IMG/VR virus record: IMGVR_UViG_3300028030_000010
Span: 1 to 64,000 of that record
Length of the DNA stretch: 64,000 nucleotides
Reading direction: 5' to 3' (one strand)
Origin: a virus
A model generated the notes under the pieces. The model worked only from the letters and a program-made list of their open reading frames with translations, did no database searches and was not told where the DNA came from. Of the stretch, positions 6,785 through 63,177 are shown in pieces; within the stretch, counting starts at the first letter, position 1; each line of letters opens with the position of its first letter. Position numbers and translations under genes: made by a program.

Positions 6785-6823
6785 TTATCTTCTTCTTTTT
6801 TTTAGATTCCCTTTTTCTTTTTT

Positions 6824-6832
6824 TGTTATAAT
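6824..6832 (+). promoter_or_regulatory. Extended -10 promoter TGTTATAAT upstream of terminase
   Basis: Preceded by T-tracts, followed by AAAAAGG RBS. Confidence 0.7.
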
Positions 6833-6849: not shown

Positions 6850-8472
6850 ATGTCTAACATAGCACATTTCGGTAGAACCATAACCAGATCGCAATTTGCG
6901 CAAGCTGTTTTGTGGTTAAAAGGCAAAAGATTCAATTTTGAGTTACATCAGCCTTTTAGAGAAATATACGACTGGCCTAAAAAAAATCTATTATTAAAAA
7001 CAGCTAGACAGGTTGGTAAATCTACTATGCTAGCTGCAACCCTTGTAACCGACTCTATGTTAGAGCCAAACAAAAGAACCTTTTATGCTACAACTTCTGA
7101 AAAACAAGCTAGGGAATTTGCTAGAGTTAAATTAAACGAATTTTTAGCTCGTTCACCTCTAGTTAGGAGATATTTATTAAACAAACATTCTTATGATGTA
7201 AAAGATAGTTTGTTTGACAAGAACTTTGCAAATGGTTCAGGAGTAACTATTTCTTATATGAAAGACAATGCTGATAGAACTAGGGGTTATTCTGCAGACA
7301 CTCTTATGTTAGATGAGATTCAAGATATGGACCCAAACGAAATACCTGTTGCATTAGAAATTTTATCAGCATCATTAGATCCTAGAAAATTATTTGCTGG
7401 TACACCTAAAACAATAGATAACCCAATTGAAATAATGTGGCAAAGATCTACTCAGCACGAAATATTTTTTAAATGTGAAAAATGTGGCAGTTGGAATGAT
7501 ATAGGGTATAAAAACATTGGTAAAAAAGGACCTATATGCTCTAAGTGCGGCGGATTATTAAATATGGAAAAATTTGTAATTATTCCTACCGCACCTGAAC
7601 CAGAAAAAGCCTTTTATGTTGGAGTAAGAGTTCCTCAGCCTGCATTAAAACTTCATTATGGTTTTGAAAACAAATGGAAAGATCTACTTCAAAAGTATGA
7701 AGAATATGATGAAGCCAAATTCAACAATGAGGTTCTTGGGATTTCGTTTTCTAAAGGTGCTCGTTTTATTACAGAAGAAGATATATTGGCTTGCTGTAGA
7801 CCAGGTGTGCACATTATAACTAATCCTGATAGGAACATTTTAAGAAGAAATTTTCAAACAATTGTTGCAGGAATAGACTGGAGTGGAGGAGGAATTGATT
7901 ACAATTCAAGAACTGTTTTAACTATATATGGAGAATTAAGAGGAGATGCTTCTTTTAGAGGAAGAGGAAGATTACAATTGCTTTATTATAAAATATACCC
8001 TCAGCAAGATTATATGATAACAATTAGGGATATTAAAAGGCAAATAGCATTATTTGGATGTCAGATTGTTGGAGCAGACGCTGGAGAAGGGGCTTTAAAC
8101 AATTCATATCTTGCAGATGCTTTTGGTCCACAAATGATTATACCTTTTAGATATGGTAAATTTGATAAAATCATTAAAAGAAGTCCTGATGGTTGGACAA
8201 TTTATTTAGACAAAACATCTGTTATAGATGATTTTTTTAAAGCTCTTAAACCAGGAAAAGTAGGTGATATTAATAGAGGAGGGAGGTTTATTTTTCCGTC
8301 TCCCGAAGAAATGAGAGAACCTATATTACATTTATTGTCAGAACACGAGCATATTACCAAAAATGGATACAGAATTTGGCAAAGAGGAACTCATCCAGAT
8401 GACTTCTTGCATGCTTCAGTATTTGCCTACAATGCCTTCAAGATATTAACAGGAGAATTTAAAGTTTACTAA
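6850..8472 (+). CDS. terL: Terminase large subunit
   Basis: Walker A TARQVGKST, Walker B LMLDE, motif III AGTP, CEKC...CSKC zinc-finger linker as in lambda gpA-type terminases, RNase H-like nuclease residues GIDW / DAG / DDFLHA. Confidence 0.93.
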   Translation: MSNIAHFGRTITRSQFAQAVLWLKGKRFNFELHQPFREIYDWPKKNLLLKTARQVGKSTMLAATLVTDSMLEPNKRTFYATTSEKQAREFARVKLNEFLARSPLVRRYLLNKHSYDVKDSLFDKNFANGSGVTISYMKDNADRTRGYSADTLMLDEIQDMDPNEIPVALEILSASLDPRKLFAGTPKTIDNPIEIMWQRSTQHEIFFKCEKCGSWNDIGYKNIGKKGPICSKCGGLLNMEKFVIIPTAPEPEKAFYVGVRVPQPALKLHYGFENKWKDLLQKYEEYDEAKFNNEVLGISFSKGARFITEEDILACCRPGVHIITNPDRNILRRNFQTIVAGIDWSGGGIDYNSRTVLTIYGELRGDASFRGRGRLQLLYYKIYPQQDYMITIRDIKRQIALFGCQIVGADAGEGALNNSYLADAFGPQMIIPFRYGKFDKIIKRSPDGWTIYLDKTSVIDDFFKALKPGKVGDINRGGRFIFPSPEEMREPILHLLSEHEHITKNGYRIWQRGTHPDDFLHASVFAYNAFKILTGEFKVY

Positions 8473-8477
8473 TTATT

Positions 8478-8486
8478 TGATATAAT
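8478..8486 (+). promoter_or_regulatory. Extended -10 promoter TGATATAAT
   Basis: Intergenic, followed by AAAAAAGGA RBS. Confidence 0.7.
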
Positions 8487-8506
8487 TAACCAAAAAAGGA
8501 TTTAGT

Positions 8507-8797
8507 ATGAAACAATACACAGTTGAACACATTGCTTCTCTATTGGAAAAAGCAGCTGCGGAAATTGAGCTTAAAGATGCAAAAATTAAAGAATTAGAAG
8601 AAAAATTAAATCAATTAGAATCTAACCAAATTAATCAAGGCTTTGATTTCATGGAAAAAAATGCCTCTTATAACTCTATAGATGAGGAGTTCGGTAACTT
8701 AGAGGACTGGGGAAGCTTAGGTGAACCTTCTAACGTAAAACTGCCTTCAACTGATGCTAAAAAAGCCTTAGAAGATTTTTTGAGCTCTTTAGCTTAA
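8507..8797 (+). CDS. Small coiled-coil protein, possible scaffolding protein
   Basis: Coiled coil, acidic, K-x-A motifs (LEKAAA, MEKNAS), C-terminal amphipathic helix, located upstream of capsid genes. Confidence 0.45.
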   Translation: MKQYTVEHIASLLEKAAAEIELKDAKIKELEEKLNQLESNQINQGFDFMEKNASYNSIDEEFGNLEDWGSLGEPSNVKLPSTDAKKALEDFLSSLA

Positions 8798-14543: not shown

Positions 14544-14576
14544 ATTTTAACAAAAAAAATAAACTTTTGCTATAAT
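14544..14576. promoter_or_regulatory. Divergent extended -10 promoters (TGTTAAAAT minus 14544-14552; TGCTATAAT plus 14568-14576)
   Basis: Each sits just upstream of an AAAAGG RBS of divergent genes. Confidence 0.65.
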
Positions 14577-19026: not shown

Positions 19027-19060
19027 AATCCTTTTTGTTATAATTATAGCAAAAAGGATT
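19027..19060. promoter_or_regulatory. 34-bp near-perfect palindrome carrying two overlapping divergent promoters and both RBSs
   Basis: AATCCTTTTTGTTATAATTATAGCAAAAAGGATT; TGTTATAAT (+) 19036-19044, TGCTATAAT (-) 19043-19051. Confidence 0.75.
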
Positions 19061-38612: not shown

Positions 38613-38914
38613 AAGAAGAGTATATAGCTGACTATATACTCTTTTTTGGTAATAAAAAATCTATTTATCCGTTTATTAGAAAACTTATCTTTTTAGCCTA
38701 CCAAGTTAAACAATCTCAGGAAAAGAAAAGGAGATTTTTAGAAACAAGCATACTTTCTACATCTATTTTGCTTACTAAAACAAAAAACAATAATTTTGAT
38801 ATAATATTTGACATGATGAAAGAATATGAAATTACTCTTTTCGGAAAAGATAAAAATGATGAACAAAATTTAGATATTGATGAGATTGTTGAATTTTTAA
38901 ATAGAGGAAAGTAA
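38609..38914 (+). CDS. -1 frameshift extension of the tail assembly chaperone (gpGT-like)
   Basis: -1 frame open for 101 codons from the slippery site to TAA at 38912-38914, abutting the tape-measure ATG. Confidence 0.8.
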   Translation: MEEEYIADYILFFGNKKSIYPFIRKLIFLAYQVKQSQEKKRRFLETSILSTSILLTKTKNNNFDIIFDMMKEYEITLFGKDKNDEQNLDIDEIVEFLNRGK

Positions 38915-47422: not shown

Positions 47423-48445
47423 TTAAAGAGCTGAAGAATCGCTGCTAGAATCTGAGTTGTTAGAAGTAGTTGTTGTATCTTCTCCGTTAAGAGCTTTTAC
47501 GAAAACATTAACGATTACATCAATTTCTAAATCTTCAGCTTTTAATGTGTTAGCATCAGTATAAGCTTTTGCTTGAGCTAGCACTTGCTCGTCAGCTGCT
47601 TGTCTATCAGAAATTTCTTTTGCAATTTTAGCTTCGTTATCTGATACTCTACTAATTAAACCTTTTTGAAGCTCTCCATTTTCGTCAGTTGTATCGTTTA
47701 ATACATTTTCAATGTCTTCAACTTTTGCTTTTAGATCTTGAACAGTTTGATCTGAAGCAACATCTAAATTATCAATAGCTTCTTTTACTTTTTGGTCAGT
47801 ATAAGTTTTAGCTTGTTCTACAGCTTCAGATACAGCTTCAGTTTTTGCTGTTTCGATAGCTTTAGATAAAGCAGATTCTGCAGCTTTAGCTCTATCAGCT
47901 TCTTGTTTTACAAGATTAGCAACAGAACCTTCAACAGTTTCATCGCCAGTTAAAACATTTACAGTTTGCTCAACTGAACTAATTTTTTCTTCAAGACCAG
48001 CAACTTCTTCATTTACTTTTTTGTTTAAATCAGATACGCTAGTTTTTAAAGAAGCAATGTCTGTTTCGTTAGTAGTTACTCTTGTTTTAAGAGCTTCAAT
48101 CGCATCGCTGATTAATTTGAATTTATTGTCTACATTGCTTTGTAAATCAGTAACAGCTTGTTCATTTTTAGTTAATCTATCAAGAATTTCTTGTACAACA
48201 CCTTCTTCTGAATTTAGAAGATCTTGGATAGCATTAATTTTTTCAGCTAAACTTTCTACACCGTCATTTTCATCAATTTTTGTGATCGCATCAATTTTTG
48301 CTAAAACTTCATTAATTCTAGCTTGAACATCAGCTTCTTTTGCAAAACCTTGAGACTGGATGTATTCTCTTACAGATTTACCTTGCGCTGCAGCTAATTG
48401 TTCTAAAGCTTTTTGTAGTTGCTCTGTAGTTACGTTTTGTGCCAT
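47423..48445 (-). CDS. Long coiled-coil fibre/whisker-like protein
   Basis: Heptad repeats, EADRAKAAE and AK[TA]YTD motifs common in phage fibres; highly-expressed codon usage. Confidence 0.55.
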   Translation of the reverse strand: MAQNVTTEQLQKALEQLAAAQGKSVREYIQSQGFAKEADVQARINEVLAKIDAITKIDENDGVESLAEKINAIQDLLNSEEGVVQEILDRLTKNEQAVTDLQSNVDNKFKLISDAIEALKTRVTTNETDIASLKTSVSDLNKKVNEEVAGLEEKISSVEQTVNVLTGDETVEGSVANLVKQEADRAKAAESALSKAIETAKTEAVSEAVEQAKTYTDQKVKEAIDNLDVASDQTVQDLKAKVEDIENVLNDTTDENGELQKGLISRVSDNEAKIAKEISDRQAADEQVLAQAKAYTDANTLKAEDLEIDVIVNVFVKALNGEDTTTTSNNSDSSSDSSAL

Positions 48446-48531: not shown

Positions 48532-49551
48532 TCACTTAATTTTGTTAGCTTTAACTTTTAATTCAAAAATTGTACCTTGATTGTTTGTTTTTATAAGCCT
48601 TATATTCCCTCCAGAAGTTTTTAAGATAGATAAATTAATATATAAACCATTTCCTCTAATATCAAGCACCTTTGTTTTTGTGGAAATGTTAGGAATGAAA
48701 ATTTTCGGTATAAACTCTTTCGGAATACCTGTTCCATTATCAGAAATAAACATATACACATATGGGTCGCTATATCTAATAAATTTAGCTTCTATCAAGG
48801 TTGAATTGGCTTCTAAAGAATTTTTTATATGATTAATTAATATGTTTAAAAAGTCAGCGTTCGATATGCAATTTTTACAGTCTAAGTTGTATTCTTTAAA
48901 CTTAACATCTATGTTCCATTTAAAATCTTTATGGGAAATTGTCATTATTTTAAACGCAGTCTCTATAACATCATAGAGTGTTTTGTTGCCATTTGAATAC
49001 TTAATCGATTTAAAACCTTTCATTTTGTTTAAAATATTGCTTATTTGTTCTATTGATGATTCCACATAAGTAAAATCTTCTCTAATATCATATAATCTTC
49101 TTAAACATGGGTTTTTATCAGGATCTGGACATTCTACTCGTCTCTGTATATCTTTTATCATTAAATCTATAAAATTCATAATTTTATACATTTTGAAAGT
49201 AATAACTTCTAAGGGAGTGCTTAGTTCGTGAGAAATGTTTTCTGTTATATTCATCAATGATTTATTTGCAGAAATGGAACTAAGATTTAAAACATTTAAT
49301 AAATATTTTTTTCTATAATTAATATAATCGATTAACAAATTACTCACAAAAACAATTAGAAAAACAATTACTACTATGTAAAAATATGAATTGGAAGCCG
49401 ACTTCCAGTCATAATGCATAAAAAAATCTAATTTTAAATGTTTGTTTTGTTGTAAAATATCATTAGATACAAGAATTAAAAATACAATTGCAGAAAAAAA
49501 CACTGAAACAAATAATTTTAAAATAGCATCTTTAATTATTTCTTTAATCAT
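48532..49551 (-). CDS. Membrane sensor histidine kinase
   Basis: Two N-terminal TM helices; H-box ENISHELSTPL; N-box LINHIKNSLEA; G1 ISDNGTGIP; F-box IFIP; G2 RGNGLYI. Confidence 0.93.
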   Translation of the reverse strand: MIKEIIKDAILKLFVSVFFSAIVFLILVSNDILQQNKHLKLDFFMHYDWKSASNSYFYIVVIVFLIVFVSNLLIDYINYRKKYLLNVLNLSSISANKSLMNITENISHELSTPLEVITFKMYKIMNFIDLMIKDIQRRVECPDPDKNPCLRRLYDIREDFTYVESSIEQISNILNKMKGFKSIKYSNGNKTLYDVIETAFKIMTISHKDFKWNIDVKFKEYNLDCKNCISNADFLNILINHIKNSLEANSTLIEAKFIRYSDPYVYMFISDNGTGIPKEFIPKIFIPNISTKTKVLDIRGNGLYINLSILKTSGGNIRLIKTNNQGTIFELKVKANKIK

Positions 49552-50264
49552 TGCTCTTCTTTCTTATTGCTTAAAATATTAGAAATAATTTCTATTAACT
49601 GAGAAGGCGGATATTGATTTTTAAAAATTGTATACTTAAAAATATCCTCTCCTGTTATTTCTTTAAAAGATTCAATTATTTTTTTTGAACTATAAACATA
49701 AGGATTTAAGTTGTTTCCTGTGTAGAAGAAAAATTTTAAGTCAGGGTTATGTTTGTATATTTCCTTAAACACCATAATGCCTTCATATTTAACATTTCCT
49801 TTTTCTGGATGAAACATTACTCCGCCATAAGTTATATCTATAACAGCATAATCTATCTTTATTTTTCCAAAGCGTTTTTCTAAAATTTTAAAAATAAATC
49901 CCGCATAACTAGAATATATTTTTAACACATTTATTTTGTTTTCTAACCCATGAATTTCAATTATATCTTCAATAAGAGAAATTAAGCCTATATTATCATC
50001 TATAATAAGTAAAATTGGTTTATCATTTTTAAGCATTTTTTCATACTCTGCTATTATTTTATCTACTTCCTTTTTTATAGAATCTGGAAGTTGTCTAATG
50101 ATGTCATCTTCTGACATTTTTTCAAAAATTTTTTCACAAGAAGCAATTTCTTTTTTGGAAATATTTTTTATATCCTCATCGTAAGTCGAACGACAAATTT
50201 GTTGCAAAGAACTCCACTTGAGTAGTTTTTTTAAAAAGTTTCTTATTTTTTCTAAAACATCCAT
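49548..50264 (-). CDS. Response regulator receiver-domain protein without recognisable output domain
   Basis: Acidic pocket LLIIDDN, phospho-Asp YAVIDITYG, FYTG, conserved Lys IFKN; N-terminal helical extension; ATGA coupling to the kinase. Confidence 0.85.
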   Translation of the reverse strand: MDVLEKIRNFLKKLLKWSSLQQICRSTYDEDIKNISKKEIASCEKIFEKMSEDDIIRQLPDSIKKEVDKIIAEYEKMLKNDKPILLIIDDNIGLISLIEDIIEIHGLENKINVLKIYSSYAGFIFKILEKRFGKIKIDYAVIDITYGGVMFHPEKGNVKYEGIMVFKEIYKHNPDLKFFFYTGNNLNPYVYSSKKIIESFKEITGEDIFKYTIFKNQYPPSQLIEIISNILSNKKEEQ

Positions 50265-50275
50265 TTCAATTCCTT

Positions 50276-50740
50276 TTATTTTAATATTAATCCTAATTTA
50301 GGTAAGATATTTTCAAAAAAATCTTTACATTGATCGGGAAATATTAGATATAGCACAAAAATGCCAAATACAATCCCTAAAGGAATAACTAATTTACTGA
50401 GAATTAATTGTTTTACTGTATTTAAGGCGCTTTTTATTCTTGTTGAAGTAGATATTTTTTTATTATTTACTTCTTCTATCTTATCTAAAGTAGCTATCTT
50501 ATAATGCAGCCACAAATCTATTGCTTCATGAAGTACATTTTTGATGTTCTTATTATCTCTCATCATATAATCATGCATAATAACAACAAATTCTACTAAT
50601 TCTTTCTCTTCTGGATATTTGCTAGTAATATCAACAATTTTTTTATACATTTCACTTAAATCAGGATCTGAATTTTGTAATTCTTTTTTTAAATCATTAA
50701 CCAGTTTTTCAAGTCTATCTCTCATTTCTTTACAAGTCAT
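50276..50740 (-). CDS. Membrane protein with C-terminal TM helix (lysis operon)
   Basis: LVIPLGIVFGIFVLYLIFP; between holin and receiver. Confidence 0.65.
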   Translation of the reverse strand: MTCKEMRDRLEKLVNDLKKELQNSDPDLSEMYKKIVDITSKYPEEKELVEFVVIMHDYMMRDNKNIKNVLHEAIDLWLHYKIATLDKIEEVNNKKISTSTRIKSALNTVKQLILSKLVIPLGIVFGIFVLYLIFPDQCKDFFENILPKLGLILK

Positions 50741-50753
50741 TTGTTATCCTTTA

Positions 50754-51164
50754 CTAAGAAGATTTACCCTTCAATTCTTTTGCTATTTTCTCTGCACTTC
50801 TTCCTACCACATAACCACCTATACCTATTTTAAGCAAATCCCACATTTGATCTGTTAACTCTAATGTAGGCACATGTAAACCAAATGCCTGAGCATATGG
50901 AACTATTATATAATTATTAGCAATGATAGTTACAAAAGTAAGCATTGTAATTGGTCTCCATGTAGAAGTTAGCCAATGTTCACTTTTAGCTTCAGCTTCT
51001 ACAATTTTTGCCTGCATTTGAAAAGTAGTTTTTTCTAATTCGCTTATTTTAGATAATAATTCTAACTTTTTATTGGGGTCATCGATAGCTTTTCCTGTAA
51101 TAGCTTCTCTTATGTCTTTAAATAAATTACCTACATCACTTAAATTAAAATCAACCAATCCCAT
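50754..51164 (-). CDS. Holin (GTA-type 3TM holin family)
   Basis: EAKSEHWLTSTWRP...WDLLKIGIGGYVVGRSAEK signature. Confidence 0.85.
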   Translation of the reverse strand: MGLVDFNLSDVGNLFKDIREAITGKAIDDPNKKLELLSKISELEKTTFQMQAKIVEAEAKSEHWLTSTWRPITMLTFVTIIANNYIIVPYAQAFGLHVPTLELTDQMWDLLKIGIGGYVVGRSAEKIAKELKGKSS

Positions 51165-51178
51165 TTATTGTTCCTTTT

Positions 51179-51194
51179 TGGTAAGATTATATCA
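51179..51194. promoter_or_regulatory. Overlapping divergent promoters for endolysin (TGGTAAGAT +) and holin operon (TGATATAAT -)
   Basis: Short intergenic region with AAAAGGA RBS on both sides. Confidence 0.6.
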
Positions 51195-51214
51195 AAAAAA
51201 CAAAAGGACAAACA

Positions 51215-51784
51215 ATGAATGAAAAATTTTTAAATGCGTATAAAAACTTAATTGGTGCTGAAGGCGGTTATGTGGATAGACCTGAAGATGCAGGAGGAGA
51301 AACTTATAAAGGTATATCTAGAAAGTTTCATCCTGATTGGGAAGGCTGGACAATTATAGATAAATACAAAGATAAACCAGATTTTAAAAGCAAAATAAAA
51401 AAAGATAAAGAATTGGAAAAACTGGTGCAAAAATTTTATTATGAAAATTACTGGGAAAAATTTAATGGCGACAAACTTCCTTATTTAATCGCTGAAGAAC
51501 TGCTAGAACAAAGCGTAGTTTTAGGGACATGGAAAACAGCTGGAAAAAATCTTCAGAAAGCTCTTAACTTATTAAATTTAAACAATAAATTATTCTCAGA
51601 TCTAATTGAAGATGGAATTGTAGGGCCTAAAACATTAGCAGCAGTAAATAAAGTAAATCAAAGAAGATTGTTGACTGTATTAAATGGATTAGAATTTTGT
51701 AGGTTTAAAGAAAGCATGGAAAAAAGACCTATAAATGAAATATTTAGGGGATGGTTTGATAGGGTAAACTTTATTCTAAAATAA
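51215..51784 (+). CDS. Endolysin, glycoside hydrolase family 108 with C-terminal peptidoglycan-binding segment
   Basis: EGGY..PEDAGGETYKGI catalytic motif; DGIVGPKT; FRGWFDR. Confidence 0.92.
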   Translation: MNEKFLNAYKNLIGAEGGYVDRPEDAGGETYKGISRKFHPDWEGWTIIDKYKDKPDFKSKIKKDKELEKLVQKFYYENYWEKFNGDKLPYLIAEELLEQSVVLGTWKTAGKNLQKALNLLNLNNKLFSDLIEDGIVGPKTLAAVNKVNQRRLLTVLNGLEFCRFKESMEKRPINEIFRGWFDRVNFILK

Positions 51785-54700
51785 CAGGGTCGTTATAATT
51801 TAACTTCCCTTCTCTTATTAGTTTTTTTATTTCAGCTATACTGTGAACTTTTATAGGTTTTTTCTTTGATGGAATAGAAGCTTTATACGCCCCTATAACA
51901 GCATCCTGATCTGTTATCATTAGCAAGTCTTTATGAGTAAGCGTTCCTTGATCAGTGAACAATTGCTTAGAAGCAAGCATTTTTTCTTTTACATCTTTTA
52001 TACCTTCAGGAGTTACTGGTACATGCACAGCAATTTGGTCACCATCATAGTCAGCTGCCAAAGCCCTTTCTACCATTGGAGGTAATGATATAGAGTGACC
52101 AGGAACAAATTTTGGATATGCACCAATAAGGTTATGTTTCCATAAAGATGGAGCCCTGTTGTAGACTACAGGTATTTCTTTACCTAATCTGTGTAAAAGC
52201 TTGATTACTTTTTCATCCTTATTTTTGATCATTTCTTTTATTTGCAATTGAGTGTATCCCATTTTAGCCATTTCTCTACTAATGTGAGGCTCATACATTT
52301 TAAGCCCCATTTCTTCTGGTAACTCTATTTCATCTAATTTTAAATCCCCTCTTGAGGGTGTAATTACAGCCCTTCCTGACATAAATTGATTTTTTCTAAG
52401 CAACTGTTCTTGAACAAATGAGTCTTTCGGTCTATTTCCTCCTAAAACATCTAGTATCCCTTTTACTTGCTTATTTGCAATTGCTGGATTGTTACTAGGA
52501 TACAATCCATACATAGCGCCTATAGCATGTTGCAGAGAAAGTTTTAGATCATTTATTGTTTTTTTAGATAATTTGTTTTGTTTTGCTTCTTTTAAAGTGT
52601 TGTTTAAATTAATTATTTCTTGATAATGTAGATTTAGGTCTGAAACTCCATATTTACCGGTATGGTCTTTGATAATTGGCCTATAAACAGGCGGAATTAC
52701 TGGAACTGTTTTTAATACAGCTACATCTTTTAGAGATAAGTTGTTGTTTTTTAGTTTTTCTAAAAACTTAATGATTTTTAAATTTCTATCTTTTAGTTGC
52801 TCATTTGATGTTTTTTTATTTTCATCTTTCAGTTTTTTTATTTCTTTATTTATATCTATAGCAGATAATTTCTTAATTATACTATCTACACCATCTTCAA
52901 CCATCATTTCTTTTAATTTTTTTTCAGGGATACCTAACAAGAAAGCAATTTCATATGAATAAATTGGGTTAATTAATGGTTCGTTTAATTTTATATGAGC
53001 ATACCTATTACCTAATTCTCCGAAAATAGAAGGATCAAAAAGCCCTCCTTTTCTAGGAGAACCATCAGTTGCGTTTATAGTTTCTGCACTTTTAACTTCT
53101 TTAGGCCCCTTTTTGATAATATCCTTATCTGTTGCGGGAACCAGATTGAAGCTATTTGGGTCATCTTCAACATTTACATTTAGTTGACTTAATAGAGCTT
53201 TAAATTTTTCATAGGCAAAATTTTCAGCCGGTTTAGGTAGTGGTTGTCCTTTTCTAAAGGCTTCAAACCAAGCATCATTTTTTTGGCCTTTTATTTTTCT
53301 AGCCTCTCTTAGTAAATCTTTCGCATTATGTGCTAATAACGCATTTATTTCCATATTTGAAAAAGATGAAGCCGAAGTTTTGCCACCTTTTGCTGGTTGT
53401 TCATTAATATTAACCCTATCAGTAGCAGTAGCACTCATTCCAGATTCAGAATCTTTAAAAAGCTTATAAGTGTATGGTTCTCCTACAAAAACTTTTTGAG
53501 GAAAAGGTTTGCCTGTTTCTGGATTGATTAGCGTTTCATATTGTTCAACCCCATGTTTCTTAGCTTCTTCCTCTGCAAATTTTAAATTATCAGTTAAAGA
53601 ATATTGATCTAGCACATAAGATTTGTCAGTTTTTTTTCCTACTTTACCTAGAGTTGCTTCTATTAATTGCCCAGGATTGATCCTTGAAATAACCCCAGCA
53701 GATGTAACTATAATATGTACTGGTTCACCTTTCTCATTTTTTGGCATTTTATCATCAGGTAAAATCAAAGAAATAGAACCTTTGTTACCATATCTCCCTG
53801 ATAACTTGTCACCTATTTGGGCCTTAGATTTTGTTTTTACAAAAACCCTAATATTGTTCCCTGATTTGTTTACAGACACCACTTTACCATCATGATGATG
53901 AGTCCATGTTTCTAATTTCAATTTGTATGGTTTAAATAAAGTTTTTTCTAAAGAAGTTATAGGTTTATCTTTATTTACGACTAATTTAATCACTAAAGGT
54001 TCATTAAATTTAACGGTTGCGCCTTTTTTTATAACTCCGTGCTCATCATACTTTGATAAATCATATTTAGATAAAGTAAGAGGAAATAAAGCCTTAGCCT
54101 TTTTTAAATCTAATACATCATCTCTATCTATATGAATTTCTTCTTTATACATATGAAGAGAAGTTAAGTTTTTGGCTGCAGTTTCAGATACAATGATTGC
54201 ATCATTTCTGTTGCCAGGCATCGACATCCAAGCTGTTCTTAAATGCACTCCATTTGCAAAATAACCATCTTTAGCATAGTTACTTTCTGCTATCACTTCT
54301 CCTTTTTTTACTCTATCTCCTACCTTAACCTTAGGCTCCATAGATATGTATGTTTTTCTAGCTAATGGAAGGTCTTTTATGTATTTAATTTTATGACCAT
54401 CTATTTGAATGTAATCATCAGTTATTTTTTCAACTTTACCAGAAACAGGACTTTTCACAACTTGGTTTGTTTTTTCTGCTATTTTTTTATAAAAATCTTC
54501 ATTTTTATCTTTTGTTCTAACAATTGGAGCTTCTCTATGTTCTAGCGATAAAGCTTGTTGAGCGTGCTTTTGAGCCATTGTAGCTCTCATGCCATCCATT
54601 GAATTAATAAGAGGCAATGTTTTTGTTGATGAAGTGTGTATATCGCTTGAGCTTTCTATCGCATAATCTACATCTTTTAGAGACTTTACTGTATATTCTT

Positions 54701-56084
54701 TTTCTCCATCTCTAATTGGAATTCCTTCTTTTTTAGCTCTCTCTTTTGATGCAGGATAAGCTACTTTTTTGTTCCACAATTCTTTTATTGTTTTTATTTC
54801 TTTTTTTCCTGTTTTTACATTTAAAACTTCTATTGCAGGCTCTCCATTTTCATCAACATATGCATTATTTGTTACTGCCAATGTAATCCCTGTCTTTGCT
54901 CCTTCCGGAGACACAACTGGGTCAATAAAACCTAATTGAGAAGAATGAATTGCTTTATCATCTTCTGTTAAAGCTCTATCTGTTTCTATTCCACCTTCTC
55001 CTAAAGGAGTTAACAATTTTGTTGCCATATGTGTTTGAATAGGGTTGTATTCTTCTGGCATTCTGGATATCTTTGAAACAGTTAAAAAACTTTTTAGTGT
55101 ATCAGTTAAATAATTGTGATTAAATACATCATTTAACGAATTAAGTGCTGGATTGTTTAATTTTTGTTTTATTTTAAAAATTTCTTTTACTGAATTTTTT
55201 GCAAAATATTCAGGCATAAGATGTATAGCGTTTAACACTTTTCTATTAGCTAAGTTGTTTTTCTGTTTTAAATCTACTTCTTCTCCTCTGTAAGCTTTCA
55301 ATATTTGCTTAATGTTTGCGAAAATCAATTCGGGAGTTAATTTGCTTGTCTCAACTCCAAAGTTTCTTTTGTTAACATCTGGGTCCAATTCCATATGATC
55401 AAAAATATACTTTATCTGTTCTGTTAATGGCTTTTGTTTTATATCATTTGGCAAAGAGTATGATTTTTTTATAAATTTTTCTAAATCAGTTGGATTTGTT
55501 TTATTTATATTGATTTCATATAGCTTTTTCCCTAATTTTCTTTTAATTTCTTCATCAGAAACACCTAACGCTTTCAATATGCTAACAACAGACACATTAG
55601 AATTTCCTATGTTAAAATAAATTACACCAGTATCTGGGTTAAGTGTTATTTTGAATTGTCTGTTTCCTATTGGATTAACTATTGTAACAATTTCTCCATT
55701 TTTTCTTTCGAACAAATAAGTACCAGGTTTTAATCTTTGCTGATTAGGTATAGCATACGAATTCCCATCTATTATGAAAGTTTCTTTAGGTGAGAATTTA
55801 GGAACTTTAGCTATCAAAATGTTTTTTTTACATTCTATTTTTTTATTATCCTTTTTTCTAATTAAACAAACATCTCCTCTAATTTCATTAAATAAACTTT
55901 TGCCTTTTAAAATAGCATTCTTAACATCTTCTAAGTCCACTTCTTTTTGTATTCCTTTAACATTGGAAACTTCTATTTTGTAAAAGTTCCCTTCTATGGG
56001 AAAGGTTTTTTCAACTTCCTTAACAACATTATTTAATATGTGTTTATCAATTTTTTCTGGAGAATCATCTATTTTGTAAAACAT
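51771..56084 (-). CDS. Phage multi-subunit RNA polymerase, beta subunit fused to beta-prime N-terminal half
   Basis: beta: FIIDG, SPEGAKTG, RATMAQKHAQQA, GDKLSGRYGNKG, SRINPGQ, QPAKGG, FSNMEINAL; beta-prime: GLFDPSIFG, VIPPVYRP, SGRAVI, NRAPSL, catalytic AADYDGDQIAVHVP. Confidence 0.95.
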   Translation of the reverse strand: MFYKIDDSPEKIDKHILNNVVKEVEKTFPIEGNFYKIEVSNVKGIQKEVDLEDVKNAILKGKSLFNEIRGDVCLIRKKDNKKIECKKNILIAKVPKFSPKETFIIDGNSYAIPNQQRLKPGTYLFERKNGEIVTIVNPIGNRQFKITLNPDTGVIYFNIGNSNVSVVSILKALGVSDEEIKRKLGKKLYEININKTNPTDLEKFIKKSYSLPNDIKQKPLTEQIKYIFDHMELDPDVNKRNFGVETSKLTPELIFANIKQILKAYRGEEVDLKQKNNLANRKVLNAIHLMPEYFAKNSVKEIFKIKQKLNNPALNSLNDVFNHNYLTDTLKSFLTVSKISRMPEEYNPIQTHMATKLLTPLGEGGIETDRALTEDDKAIHSSQLGFIDPVVSPEGAKTGITLAVTNNAYVDENGEPAIEVLNVKTGKKEIKTIKELWNKKVAYPASKERAKKEGIPIRDGEKEYTVKSLKDVDYAIESSSDIHTSSTKTLPLINSMDGMRATMAQKHAQQALSLEHREAPIVRTKDKNEDFYKKIAEKTNQVVKSPVSGKVEKITDDYIQIDGHKIKYIKDLPLARKTYISMEPKVKVGDRVKKGEVIAESNYAKDGYFANGVHLRTAWMSMPGNRNDAIIVSETAAKNLTSLHMYKEEIHIDRDDVLDLKKAKALFPLTLSKYDLSKYDEHGVIKKGATVKFNEPLVIKLVVNKDKPITSLEKTLFKPYKLKLETWTHHHDGKVVSVNKSGNNIRVFVKTKSKAQIGDKLSGRYGNKGSISLILPDDKMPKNEKGEPVHIIVTSAGVISRINPGQLIEATLGKVGKKTDKSYVLDQYSLTDNLKFAEEEAKKHGVEQYETLINPETGKPFPQKVFVGEPYTYKLFKDSESGMSATATDRVNINEQPAKGGKTSASSFSNMEINALLAHNAKDLLREARKIKGQKNDAWFEAFRKGQPLPKPAENFAYEKFKALLSQLNVNVEDDPNSFNLVPATDKDIIKKGPKEVKSAETINATDGSPRKGGLFDPSIFGELGNRYAHIKLNEPLINPIYSYEIAFLLGIPEKKLKEMMVEDGVDSIIKKLSAIDINKEIKKLKDENKKTSNEQLKDRNLKIIKFLEKLKNNNLSLKDVAVLKTVPVIPPVYRPIIKDHTGKYGVSDLNLHYQEIINLNNTLKEAKQNKLSKKTINDLKLSLQHAIGAMYGLYPSNNPAIANKQVKGILDVLGGNRPKDSFVQEQLLRKNQFMSGRAVITPSRGDLKLDEIELPEEMGLKMYEPHISREMAKMGYTQLQIKEMIKNKDEKVIKLLHRLGKEIPVVYNRAPSLWKHNLIGAYPKFVPGHSISLPPMVERALAADYDGDQIAVHVPVTPEGIKDVKEKMLASKQLFTDQGTLTHKDLLMITDQDAVIGAYKASIPSKKKPIKVHSIAEIKKLIREGKLNYNDPVILE

Positions 56085-63105: not shown

Positions 63106-63177
63106 AAAGGATCCTTTTTTGTCTAATTTTAACATATTTGAATGTTTTTGATATAATTTACAAAAAAAAGAGAGCGC

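What the first reader, a model, noticed from the sequence alone, without database searches (positions are those of the whole stretch)
48532..51784. Complete two-component system embedded in the lysis cassette (holin - membrane protein - receiver - histidine kinase)
Seen: one tightly packed minus-strand operon from promoter 51186-51194: 3TM holin, a TM protein, a receiver with all catalytic residues but no DNA-binding output, and a 2-TM histidine kinase with intact H/N/G1/F/G2 boxes, divergent from the GH108 endolysin. The kinase has only a short loop between its TMs and Cys pairs (ECPDPDKNPC in the DHp region, CKNC). Known: complete phage-encoded kinase-regulator pairs are uncommon; intramembrane-sensing kinases detect envelope state; output-less receivers act by protein-protein interaction. 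Inference: a phosphorelay that senses envelope, redox or superinfection state and tunes lysis timing post-translationally (a lysis-inhibition analogue), or cross-talks with host regulators.
Basis: partly seen in the sequence, partly recalled or inferred. Interest (0 to 1): 0.8.

Follow-up and report, generated by a model that had tools for sequence, protein, structure and literature searches.

The report
Phage two-component relay beside lysis genes
An uncultured large phage, probably from a deep-sea vent sample, carries its own intact sensor kinase, a very divergent phosphate-receiving switch protein and a membrane-anchored partner in one operon with its hole-forming lysis gene; this virus-only trio recurs beside different lysis genes in many other large phages, so it may set the time of host bursting, but nothing has been tested at the bench.

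Summary
Five genes are involved.
- PF11351 holin: 50754-51164 (-).
- Tail-anchored helical membrane protein, here called TM154: 50276-50740 (-).
- Stand-alone receiver: 49548-50264 (-).
- 2-TM histidine kinase: 48532-49551 (-).
- GH108 endolysin, transcribed divergently: 51215-51784 (+).

The four minus-strand genes are tightly packed. Pfam does not detect the receiver. Its AlphaFold model matches only receiver domains (Z 9-11), and its DD/D/T/K residues are kept in 148-149 of 149 distant relatives. The kinase has invariant H, N, G1 and G2 boxes.

New results:
- The TM154-receiver-kinase trio is conserved on 25 IMG/VR viral contigs, up to 272 kb.
- It is absent from 50,697 GenBank phage records.
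- Among 185,579 cellular species genomes it appears only on two contigs of 1.4-2 kb.
- Many relatives also carry a small secreted protein and a porin-like outer-membrane barrel. The window's lineage lacks both, and its kinase lacks the periplasmic domain.

An endolysin of one of three different families lies within 2.4 kb of the cassette in five lineages, but 17-115 kb away in four genomes. The lysis-timing reading is therefore partly supported and unproven.

This scan has found the same family before on other DNA (e1-5857379, e1-5857377, e1-3280473). I found no published description.

The parts
51186..51197 (-). Promoter-like motif TTTTGATATAAT (T-run plus extended -10), about 20 nt upstream of the holin start
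   Evidence: TTTTGNTATAAT occurs 7 times in the window against 0.5 expected, and in none of 100 shuffles as often. Other copies lie upstream of the large terminase (6850) and other large plus-strand genes (14597, 19064, 38915, 63178). Function is inferred.
50754..51164 (-). Holin, first gene of the operon
   Evidence: PF11351 GTA_holin_3TM at 47.4 bits (cut-off 24.8); phrog_3427 holin at E 7e-29.
50276..50740 (-). TM154: about 105-residue cytoplasmic helical domain, one C-terminal TM (117-135), short tail. It is the conserved third member of the cassette.
   Evidence: An iterated HMM finds homologues directly upstream of the receiver in 19 of 24 records. Four more records have a positional analogue of the same build. 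No Pfam, PHROG function, NCBIfam, PADLOC or ESM Atlas match.
49548..50264 (-). Stand-alone divergent receiver. Residues 1-80 form a helical extension that begins with an amphipathic Lys-rich segment. Residues 81-237 form the receiver fold, with a beta-hairpin inserted after the phospho-accepting Asp143.
   Evidence: AF2 pLDDT 86. Only receivers match in PDB. D89/D90/D143/T182/K215 are kept in 148-149 of 149 representatives. N-terminal hydrophobic moment is 0.59 against 0.35 for an internal control segment.
48532..49551 (-). Class-I (HisKA-type) sensor histidine kinase: 2 TM, 27-residue outer loop, no sensor domain. H108; N box at 240; G1 at 271; F at 284; G2 at 300.
   Evidence: There are 123 relatives in the protein search. 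The family signature KYSNGNK is invariant.
51215..51784 (+). Endolysin, transcribed divergently from the operon
   Evidence: Glyco_hydro_108 at 67.5 bits plus PG_binding_3 at 28.9 bits; phrog_315 endolysin. DNA similarity to crAssphage lysozyme genes.

Best explanation
The locus is the reduced, three-gene form of a virus-restricted two-component module. In this phage it is co-transcribed with the holin.

Shown:
- An intact HisKA/HATPase_c kinase, an intact receiver with no output domain, and a tail-anchored membrane protein form a cassette conserved across many large phages.
- The cassette is repeatedly found next to lysis genes of unrelated families.

Inferred mechanism:
- The kinase has only a short loop between its two membrane helices. 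It would read a membrane or envelope state, perhaps through TM154 or the holin within the bilayer.
- It autophosphorylates on His108 and transfers the phosphate to Asp143 of the receiver.
- The receiver is held at the inner face of the membrane by its amphipathic N-terminus.
- Phosphorylation changes its binding to the cytoplasmic domain of TM154 and/or to the holin. This delays or advances hole formation, so lysis timing would be set post-translationally.

Relatives with the full cassette add a kinase periplasmic domain, a small secreted protein and a porin-like outer-membrane barrel. They would take their signal from the periplasm or from outside the cell.

I put about 0.85 on 'functional phage-specific phosphorelay with a protein-level output at the membrane'. 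I put about 0.4 on 'the output is lysis timing'.
For: - Catalytic motifs of the kinase and the receiver are invariant over deep divergence.
- The receiver fold is confirmed.
- The receiver lies upstream of the kinase in 23 of 25 loci, and TM154 lies upstream of the receiver in 19-23 of 24.
- The kinase family is absent from GenBank phage records. In cellular genomes it appears only on two tiny MAG contigs.
- None of the 150 best of 294 receiver relatives is fused to an output domain.
- An endolysin lies within 2.4 kb of the cassette in G000/G001 (GH108), G018, G020 and G025 (M15_4) and G022 (M15_3, 24 nt away).
- L018 repeats the window's order (endolysin, small TM protein, TM154, receiver, kinase) with non-homologous lysis genes.
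- Lysis-adjacent cassettes fall in three major clades of the kinase tree.
- Under uniform gene placement the combined probability is about 4e-6.
- The window operon shares a promoter motif with the terminase and other large plus-strand genes.
Against: - In G012, G004, G017 and G024 the identified endolysin is 17, 83, 95 and 115 kb from the cassette.
- In L003, L005, L007 and L010 the nearest neighbour is a ClpX-like ATPase.
- The proximity statistic ignores the modular layout of phage genomes, and late and membrane genes cluster anyway.
- Most loci come from incomplete contigs, and only four endolysin families were searched for.
- There is no expression, phosphotransfer or interaction data.
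- The signal is unknown.
- TM154 has no recognisable relation to any holin or antiholin family.
Confidence: 0.42

Rival explanations
1. The module senses envelope or host state, but its output is not lysis. The receiver would regulate another late process through protein-protein contacts. Candidates are the phage RNA polymerase or sigma factor, adaptor-type control of ClpX proteolysis as with CpdR or RssB, or superinfection exclusion. Its closeness to lysis genes would reflect only a shared late or membrane gene module.
For: - RNAP beta genes lie within 5 kb of the cassette in G000/G001, G015 and G019, and 11-12 kb away in G014/G016.
- A ClpX-like AAA+ gene is divergently adjacent in four loci.
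- PhoH-PIN lies between the endolysin and the cassette in L020.
- A fibritin-like coiled-coil gene follows the kinase in several loci.
- The endolysin is far away in four genomes.
Against: - Six complete or near-complete genomes with the cassette show no RNAP beta, so the polymerase cannot be the general target.
- ClpX adjacency is confined to one subclade of the kinase tree.
- The two conserved partners are membrane proteins.
- The receiver has a membrane-type amphipathic N-terminus.
Confidence: 0.3
2. The module acts on host signalling. The phage kinase phosphorylates or dephosphorylates host response regulators, or the receiver drains phosphate from host kinases. Either would reprogramme the host envelope-stress response during infection.
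For: - The H-E-x-x-T phosphatase motif is present at the H box (HELST). That this motif marks phosphatase activity is from my own knowledge.
- Stand-alone receivers can act as phosphate sinks (established for CheY-type sinks; from my own knowledge).
- The host is unknown, so this cannot be excluded.
Against: - The kinase and receiver stay strictly paired, and co-diverge with a third phage-only protein over very deep divergence. This points to a self-contained circuit.
- No close cellular homologue exists that could supply cognate specificity.
Confidence: 0.12
3. The genes are a recently captured host two-component system, or a decaying remnant with no role for the phage.
For: - The window kinase has lost the periplasmic domain found in most relatives.
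- The accessory secreted protein and the porin-like barrel are missing.
Against: - The family is essentially virus-only.
- All catalytic residues are invariant.
- All reading frames are intact and tightly coupled.
- The nearest relative, a complete 161-kb genome, keeps the same reduced arrangement.
Confidence: 0.03

Closest known systems
Classical HisKA-type two-component systems with stand-alone receivers (HK853-RR468, KinA/B-Spo0F, CheA-CheY, DivJ/PleC-DivK, CpdR)
   Same: - DHp with the phospho-accepting His, and an HATPase_c domain with N, G1, F and G2 boxes.
- (beta-alpha)5 receiver with the DD/D/T/K residues.
- Adjacent, translationally coupled genes.
- Output by protein-protein contact rather than DNA binding.
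   Different: - Encoded only by viruses.
- The receiver is too divergent for PF00072. It has an 80-residue N-terminal extension and a beta-hairpin inserted after the phospho-Asp.
- There is an obligatory third partner, a tail-anchored membrane protein.
- The kinase carries its own invariant KYSNGNK signature and fits no NCBIfam kinase family.
Intramembrane-sensing kinases with accessory membrane proteins (LiaF-LiaS-LiaR, BceAB-BceS); comparison from my own knowledge
   Same: - Two TM helices with a loop under 30 residues.
- No cytoplasmic sensor domain.
- The gene for a small membrane protein lies in the same operon.
   Different: - No sequence relation to LiaF. BceS matches only over the ATPase domain (E 4e-5).
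- The regulator has no DNA-binding domain.
- Most relatives of the window kinase do have a periplasmic domain.
Lysis inhibition of phage T4 (holin T, antiholins RI and RIII; PMC8385771) and of ICP1 (TeaA/ArrA; PMC7182436)
   Same: - A phage-encoded sensing device placed with the holin that could postpone lysis.
- In relatives, a small signal-peptide protein of 82-137 aa lies beside the kinase. Its size and location recall RI.
   Different: - No homology to T, RI, RIII, TeaA or ArrA was detected.
- Known lysis inhibition works by direct antiholin-holin binding and involves no phosphorylation.
RcGTA lysis locus rcc00555/rcc00556 under the CckA-ChpT-CtrA phosphorelay (PMC5026251 and Westbye 2013 cited there)
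   Same: - A His-Asp phosphorelay modulates lysis and release.
- The window holin falls in Pfam's GTA_holin_3TM family (PF11351), which is named for gene-transfer agents.
- That rcc00555 is a GH108-type enzyme is from my own memory and was not checked.
   Different: - There the relay is host-encoded, essential for the cell cycle, and acts through the DNA-binding regulator CtrA.
- Here the relay is phage-encoded and has no DNA-binding output.

Membership tests
Two-component system: class-I histidine kinase | DHp helix with the phospho-accepting His in an H box | tested here: met
   H108 in SHELSTPL is invariant in 20 relatives. The family profile aligns with HK853 over DHp and CA. Pfam HisKA alone scores 15.9 bits, below its 26.9-bit cut-off.
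Two-component system: class-I histidine kinase | HATPase_c domain with N, G1, F and G2 boxes | tested here: met
   PF02518 scores 35.9 bits against a 26.4-bit cut-off. N240/N244, D271-G275 and G300/G302 are invariant.
Two-component system: receiver domain | (beta-alpha)5 fold with the acidic pair, phospho-Asp, Thr/Ser and Lys | tested here: met
   AF2 pLDDT 86. Foldseek prob 1.0 and VIA Z 9.1-11.2, to receivers only. The five residues are kept in 148-149 of 149 representatives.
Two-component system: receiver domain | Match to Pfam Response_reg (PF00072) above the gathering score | tested here: not met
   No hit at E<0.1 for the window protein. Two relatives reach only 15-18 bits. Membership therefore rests on fold and catalytic residues, not on the sequence model.
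Two-component system | His-to-Asp phosphotransfer between the pair | not testable with these tools
   Needs purified proteins. Conserved adjacency in 23 of 25 loci is indirect support only.
Intramembrane-sensing histidine kinases | Two TM helices, an outer loop under about 30 residues, and no other input domain | tested here: met
   TM helices at 10-28 and 56-74, a 27-residue loop, and 33 residues from TM2 to H108. This holds for the window and its nearest relatives only. Most family members have an outer domain of about 120 residues.
Intramembrane-sensing histidine kinases | Signal supplied by an accessory membrane protein | not testable with these tools
   TM154 is a candidate on the basis of conserved synteny only.
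T4/ICP1-type lysis inhibition (holin plus antiholin) | Homology of a component to a known antiholin or to holin T/TeaA | tested here: not met
   TM154, the receiver and the kinase have no lysis-category PHROG or Pfam hit. The holin belongs to a different family, PF11351.
Holin/GH108 lysis cassette of the kind NCBIfam calls 'holin-associated N-acetylmuramidase' | PF11351 holin next to a GH108 plus PG_binding_3 muramidase | tested here: met
   NCBIfam NF040573 matches at only 36 bits against a 240-bit cut-off, so it is the same kind but not an equivalog.

The most novel reading that the evidence does not exclude
The family is a phage-invented, envelope-spanning signalling device. Its parts are a porin-like outer-membrane barrel, an RI-sized secreted protein, an inner-membrane kinase, a membrane-tethered receiver and a tail-anchored partner. 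It would gate the holin by phosphorylation. That would be a phosphorylation-based form of lysis inhibition, or of phage-to-phage sensing of superinfection or infection density. The window would hold a streamlined version in which the kinase reads the membrane or the holin directly.
Probability: 0.2. Interest if true: 0.85.

Novelty: new variant of a known kind. Interest (0 to 1): 0.64.

Why it matters
Lysis timing decides burst size and phage fitness. The only well-understood sensing mechanism is antiholin-based lysis inhibition in T-even phages and ICP1.

A conserved, virus-only His-Asp relay that repeatedly sits in lysis cassettes would be a second way for phages to couple the lysis clock to a sensed signal, and a chemically different one.

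It would also be a clear case of a two-component lineage that evolves inside viruses rather than being borrowed from hosts.

The parts are small, so the hypothesis can be tested directly in vitro and in a heterologous host.

Tried and rejected
Gene context came from the search for related loci instead.
- A single-protein scan of viral contigs found nothing. The alignment-based scan found 25 loci.
- tblastn of the window kinase and of a typical family member (P0043) against 50,697 GenBank phage records gave no match.
- The receiver profile against PDB sequences gave no hit. Only the fold comparison worked.
- ESM Atlas for TM154 gave no usable hit.
- PADLOC gave none for any component. NCBIfam gave only generic kinase matches far below cut-off.
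- The idea that GH108 and PF11351 are conserved neighbours was rejected. They are adjacent only in the window and in L001.
- The idea that the phage RNA polymerase is the general target was rejected. Six complete or near-complete carriers show none.
- The Cys pairs as a conserved redox sensor were rejected as a family feature.
- The secreted protein and the porin-like barrel were looked for in G000, G001, G004, G012 and G016 and not found.
- Sequencing runs: no RNA holder listed.
- Literature searches for phage-encoded two-component systems or kinases found no description of this family.
- The listing of cluster members gave no useful names apart from one MAG label, 'Bacteroidales'.
Full report
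**Setting**

The window is the first 64 kb of a single 76,440-bp viral contig. CheckV rates the contig 47% complete.
- It has about 30% G+C.
- It encodes a large terminase and a tail sheath, so it is a contractile-tailed phage.
- It also encodes a fused RNA polymerase beta/beta' chain at 51771-56084.
- The one sequencing run that holds the stretch completely may be the source of the assembly. It is labelled hydrothermal vent metagenome.
- The nearest relative is a complete 161-kb genome with direct terminal repeats (G001, locus L001).

**Check of the observation**

On the minus strand they run in this order:
- holin, 51164 to 50754;
- the membrane protein I call TM154, 50740 to 50276;
- the receiver, 50264 to 49548;
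- the kinase, 49551 to 48532.

The gaps are 13 nt and 11 nt, and the last two genes overlap by 4 nt. The GH108 endolysin (51215-51784) is divergent.

Pfam and PHROGs confirm the holin (PF11351, phrog_3427). They also confirm the endolysin (GH108 plus PG_binding_3) and the kinase ATPase domain (PF02518, 35.9 bits).

The kinase H box scores below the HisKA cut-off.
- In an alignment of 20 relatives at 29-53% identity, H108, the N-box asparagines, DxGxG and GxG are invariant.
- The family profile matches solved kinases, with HK853 aligned over both DHp and CA.
- Hydropathy gives two TM helices (10-28 and 56-74) and a 27-residue loop. His108 follows TM2 by 33 residues, so there is no input domain.
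- The two Cys pairs exist but are confined to the closest relatives.

The receiver is the weakest point by sequence and the strongest after modelling.
- Pfam finds nothing at E<0.1. A profile of 17 homologues finds nothing in PDB sequences.
- The AlphaFold model (pLDDT 86) has a five-stranded alpha/beta core at residues 81-237.
- Foldseek (prob 1.0) and VIA-align (Z 9.1-11.2, rmsd about 3 A over 117-130 residues) return only receiver domains: Rcp1, ComE, CheY, Spo0F, RR468, RcsB and RssB.
- Asp89, Asp90, Asp143, Thr182 and Lys215 are invariant in 40 homologues. They are kept in 148-149 of 149 representatives clustered at 50% identity.
- A beta-hairpin (149-159) is inserted right after the phospho-accepting Asp.
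- Residues 40-80 are confidently modelled helices packed on the domain.
- Across the family the first dozen residues form a Lys-rich amphipathic segment (for example M-F-x-W-F-K-K). Its hydrophobic moment is 0.59 against 0.35 for an internal control. I read this as a membrane-binding helix. That is an inference.
- The exhaustive profile search found 294 relatives. The 150 best are all at most 292 residues long and none is fused to another domain.

The motif occurs seven times in the window against 0.5 expected. It lies upstream of the terminase and other large plus-strand genes. Generic sigma-70 scoring in the region is at chance. I infer that the operon belongs to the same expression class as the terminase gene. 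The T-run plus extended -10 resembles promoters of Campylobacterota. That comparison is from my own knowledge and is a lead on the host, not a result.

**What the unit is**

The kinase has 123 relatives in the protein database, most of them 400-470 residues long.
- An alignment-based scan of IMG/VR found 25 loci on contigs of 10-272 kb. Four of them have terminal repeats.
- The receiver lies upstream of the kinase in 23 of the 25 loci. In two of these (L004, L018) an ORF of about 200 aa with two TM segments sits between them. One of the remaining loci is cut at the contig end.
- An iterated HMM finds TM154 homologues directly upstream of the receiver in 19 of 24 records. Four more have a positional analogue of the same build: about 100-150 cytoplasmic helical residues, one C-terminal TM and a short tail.
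- The conserved unit is therefore a trio.

The kinase family is essentially viral.
- Two kinase queries found nothing in 50,697 GenBank phage records.
- The signature scan of 185,579 species genomes returned only two contigs, of 1.4 and 2.0 kb, in MAGs. I take these to be mis-binned phage fragments.
- NCBIfam gives only generic kinase matches far below every cut-off.

**A larger ancestral cassette**

In 11 loci the kinase is followed by an 82-137-residue protein. This protein has a signal peptide and a conserved K-S-x-K-G-W-x-R-V domain.

In 9 loci a further 363-420-residue protein follows (8 clustered by BLAST, plus L025 by HMM).
- It has a signal peptide and ends in an aromatic-x-Phe motif.
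- Its model has 16 long strands (pLDDT 63.5 overall, 70-84 in the strands).
- It matches only porins (Foldseek E 4e-12 and below).

The hosts are therefore diderm. Both genes are scattered over the kinase tree, which suggests they are ancestral and were lost repeatedly. They are absent from G000, G001 and three other complete genomes. The window lineage has also lost the kinase's outer domain of about 120 residues with its conserved Cys pair. The window therefore shows a streamlined form.

**Is the link to lysis real?**

The same holin and GH108 families are adjacent only in the window and L001. G012 has GH108 about 17 kb away, and G017 has the holin about 95 kb away. Other endolysin families change the picture.

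| Record | Endolysin family | Position relative to the cassette |
|---|---|---|
| L018 | Peptidase_M15_4 (phrog_465) | 0.35 kb from the cassette |
| L020 | Peptidase_M15_4 (phrog_465) | 1.5 kb from the cassette |
| L025 | Peptidase_M15_4 (phrog_465) | 2.3 kb from the kinase end; 1.0 kb from the barrel gene |
| L009 | Peptidase_M15_4 (phrog_465) | 6 kb from the cassette |
| L022 | Peptidase_M15_3 | ends 24 nt before the TM154-like gene |
| G004 | Peptidase_M15_4 (phrog_465) | 83 kb away |
| G024 | Peptidase_M15_4 (phrog_465) | 115 kb away |
| G017 | Peptidase_M15_3 | 95 kb away |

- L018 repeats the window's order with unrelated genes: endolysin, an 84-residue TM protein, TM154, the receiver, then the kinase.
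- In L025 the five-gene cassette is followed by three small TM proteins and then the endolysin.
- Lysis-adjacent cassettes occur in three major clades of the kinase tree.
- Under uniform placement the combined probability of the observed distances is about 4e-6. This overstates significance, because late and membrane genes cluster in phage genomes.
- In G017 the distant lysis cluster (RNAP beta, holin, nuclease, M15 endolysin) holds an extra canonical single-domain receiver, at 87 bits.

My verdict is that the association with lysis genes is recurrent and probably meaningful, but it is not universal.

**Rivals from synteny**

RNA polymerase genes are near the cassette in several RNAP-bearing lineages. 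Six complete or near-complete carriers show no RNAP beta at all. A ClpX-like ATPase is divergently adjacent in one subclade. Neither can be the general partner. The only universal partners are the two membrane proteins.

**Mechanism**

Shown: an intact kinase, an intact receiver with no output domain, a conserved tail-anchored partner, and co-location with the holin.

Inferred:
- The kinase reads a membrane or envelope state. In full-cassette relatives it would read a periplasmic or external cue through the secreted protein and the barrel.
- It phosphorylates Asp143 of the membrane-proximal receiver.
- The receiver then changes its grip on TM154 or the holin, which shifts the time of hole formation.

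I put about 0.85 on a functional phage-specific relay with a membrane-level protein output. I put about 0.4 on lysis timing as that output.

**Comparison with what is known**

- The chemistry is classical two-component signalling.
- The short-loop kinase with an operon-encoded membrane protein resembles LiaFS- or BceS-type intramembrane sensing (my own knowledge). It shows no homology to those systems beyond the ATPase domain.
- In function the closest ideas are lysis inhibition in T4 (PMC8385771) and ICP1 (PMC7182436), which use antiholins and no phosphorylation. The other is control of the RcGTA holin/endolysin locus by the host CckA relay (PMC5026251), which is transcriptional and host-encoded.
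- Five full-text searches found no description of this family.
- Earlier notes of this scan describe the same family on other vent and T4-like phage DNA, and similar receiver-plus-membrane-partner themes in other phages. I treated these as leads. They agree with what I found independently.

**Verdict**

The family is undescribed in the literature I could search. It is a new, virus-restricted variant of a known kind of system.

Noticed in passing
window 6821-6832, 14565-14576, 19033-19054, 38794-38805, 51186-51197, 63146-63157: TTTTGNTATAAT (T-run plus extended -10) occurs 7 times against 0.5 expected. It lies upstream of the terminase, other large plus-strand genes and the holin. It is probably the promoter class for these genes. 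The form recalls Campylobacterota promoters (from my own knowledge), which is a possible host clue.
   Followed up: partly
L003:10764-11060 and L003:11060-12310 (also in L002, L005, L009-L011, L017, L019, L025; the small protein also in L008 and L021): Downstream of the kinase, many relatives carry a small signal-peptide protein with a KSxKGWxRV motif. Many also carry a 16-strand porin-like outer-membrane barrel that ends in aromatic-x-Phe. Neither is present in the window genome.
   Followed up: yes
L020:8174-8581 and the next ORF; L020:4200-5570: This relative has one canonical PF00072 receiver (38 bits) and a second weaker one directly after the kinase. A PIN-PhoH protein lies between the endolysin and the cassette.
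   Followed up: partly
L028:4665-5078, 6867-7322, 8023-8550 (G017, 51-62 kb): Far from its kinase cassette, G017 has a cluster of RNAP beta, a canonical stand-alone receiver (87 bits), a PF11351 holin, a non-specific nuclease and an M15_3 endolysin.
   Followed up: partly
L003:6906-8081 (also L005, L007, L010): A ClpX-like AAA+ ATPase with a ClpX zinc finger is divergently adjacent to the cassette in one subclade.
   Followed up: partly
L004:9008-9604, L018:8981-9592: A protein of about 200 residues with two TM segments and no family match is inserted between the receiver and the kinase in two loci.
   Followed up: no
L026, L027: The only 'cellular' hits of the kinase family are 1.4-2.0-kb contigs in MAGs labelled Gracilibacteria and Woesearchaeota. 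They are most likely phage fragments binned by mistake.
   Followed up: no
window 47423-48445 (-): A 340-residue coiled-coil protein with a weak fibritin-like match follows the kinase. It has its own TATAAT-containing upstream region. Homologues lie just downstream of the kinase in L001, L014, L016 and L018.
   Followed up: partly
receiver family N-termini (P0130-P0144): About a quarter of receiver relatives have a four-Cys motif (CxxC...C...C) between the amphipathic start and the receiver fold. The window protein lacks it.
   Followed up: partly
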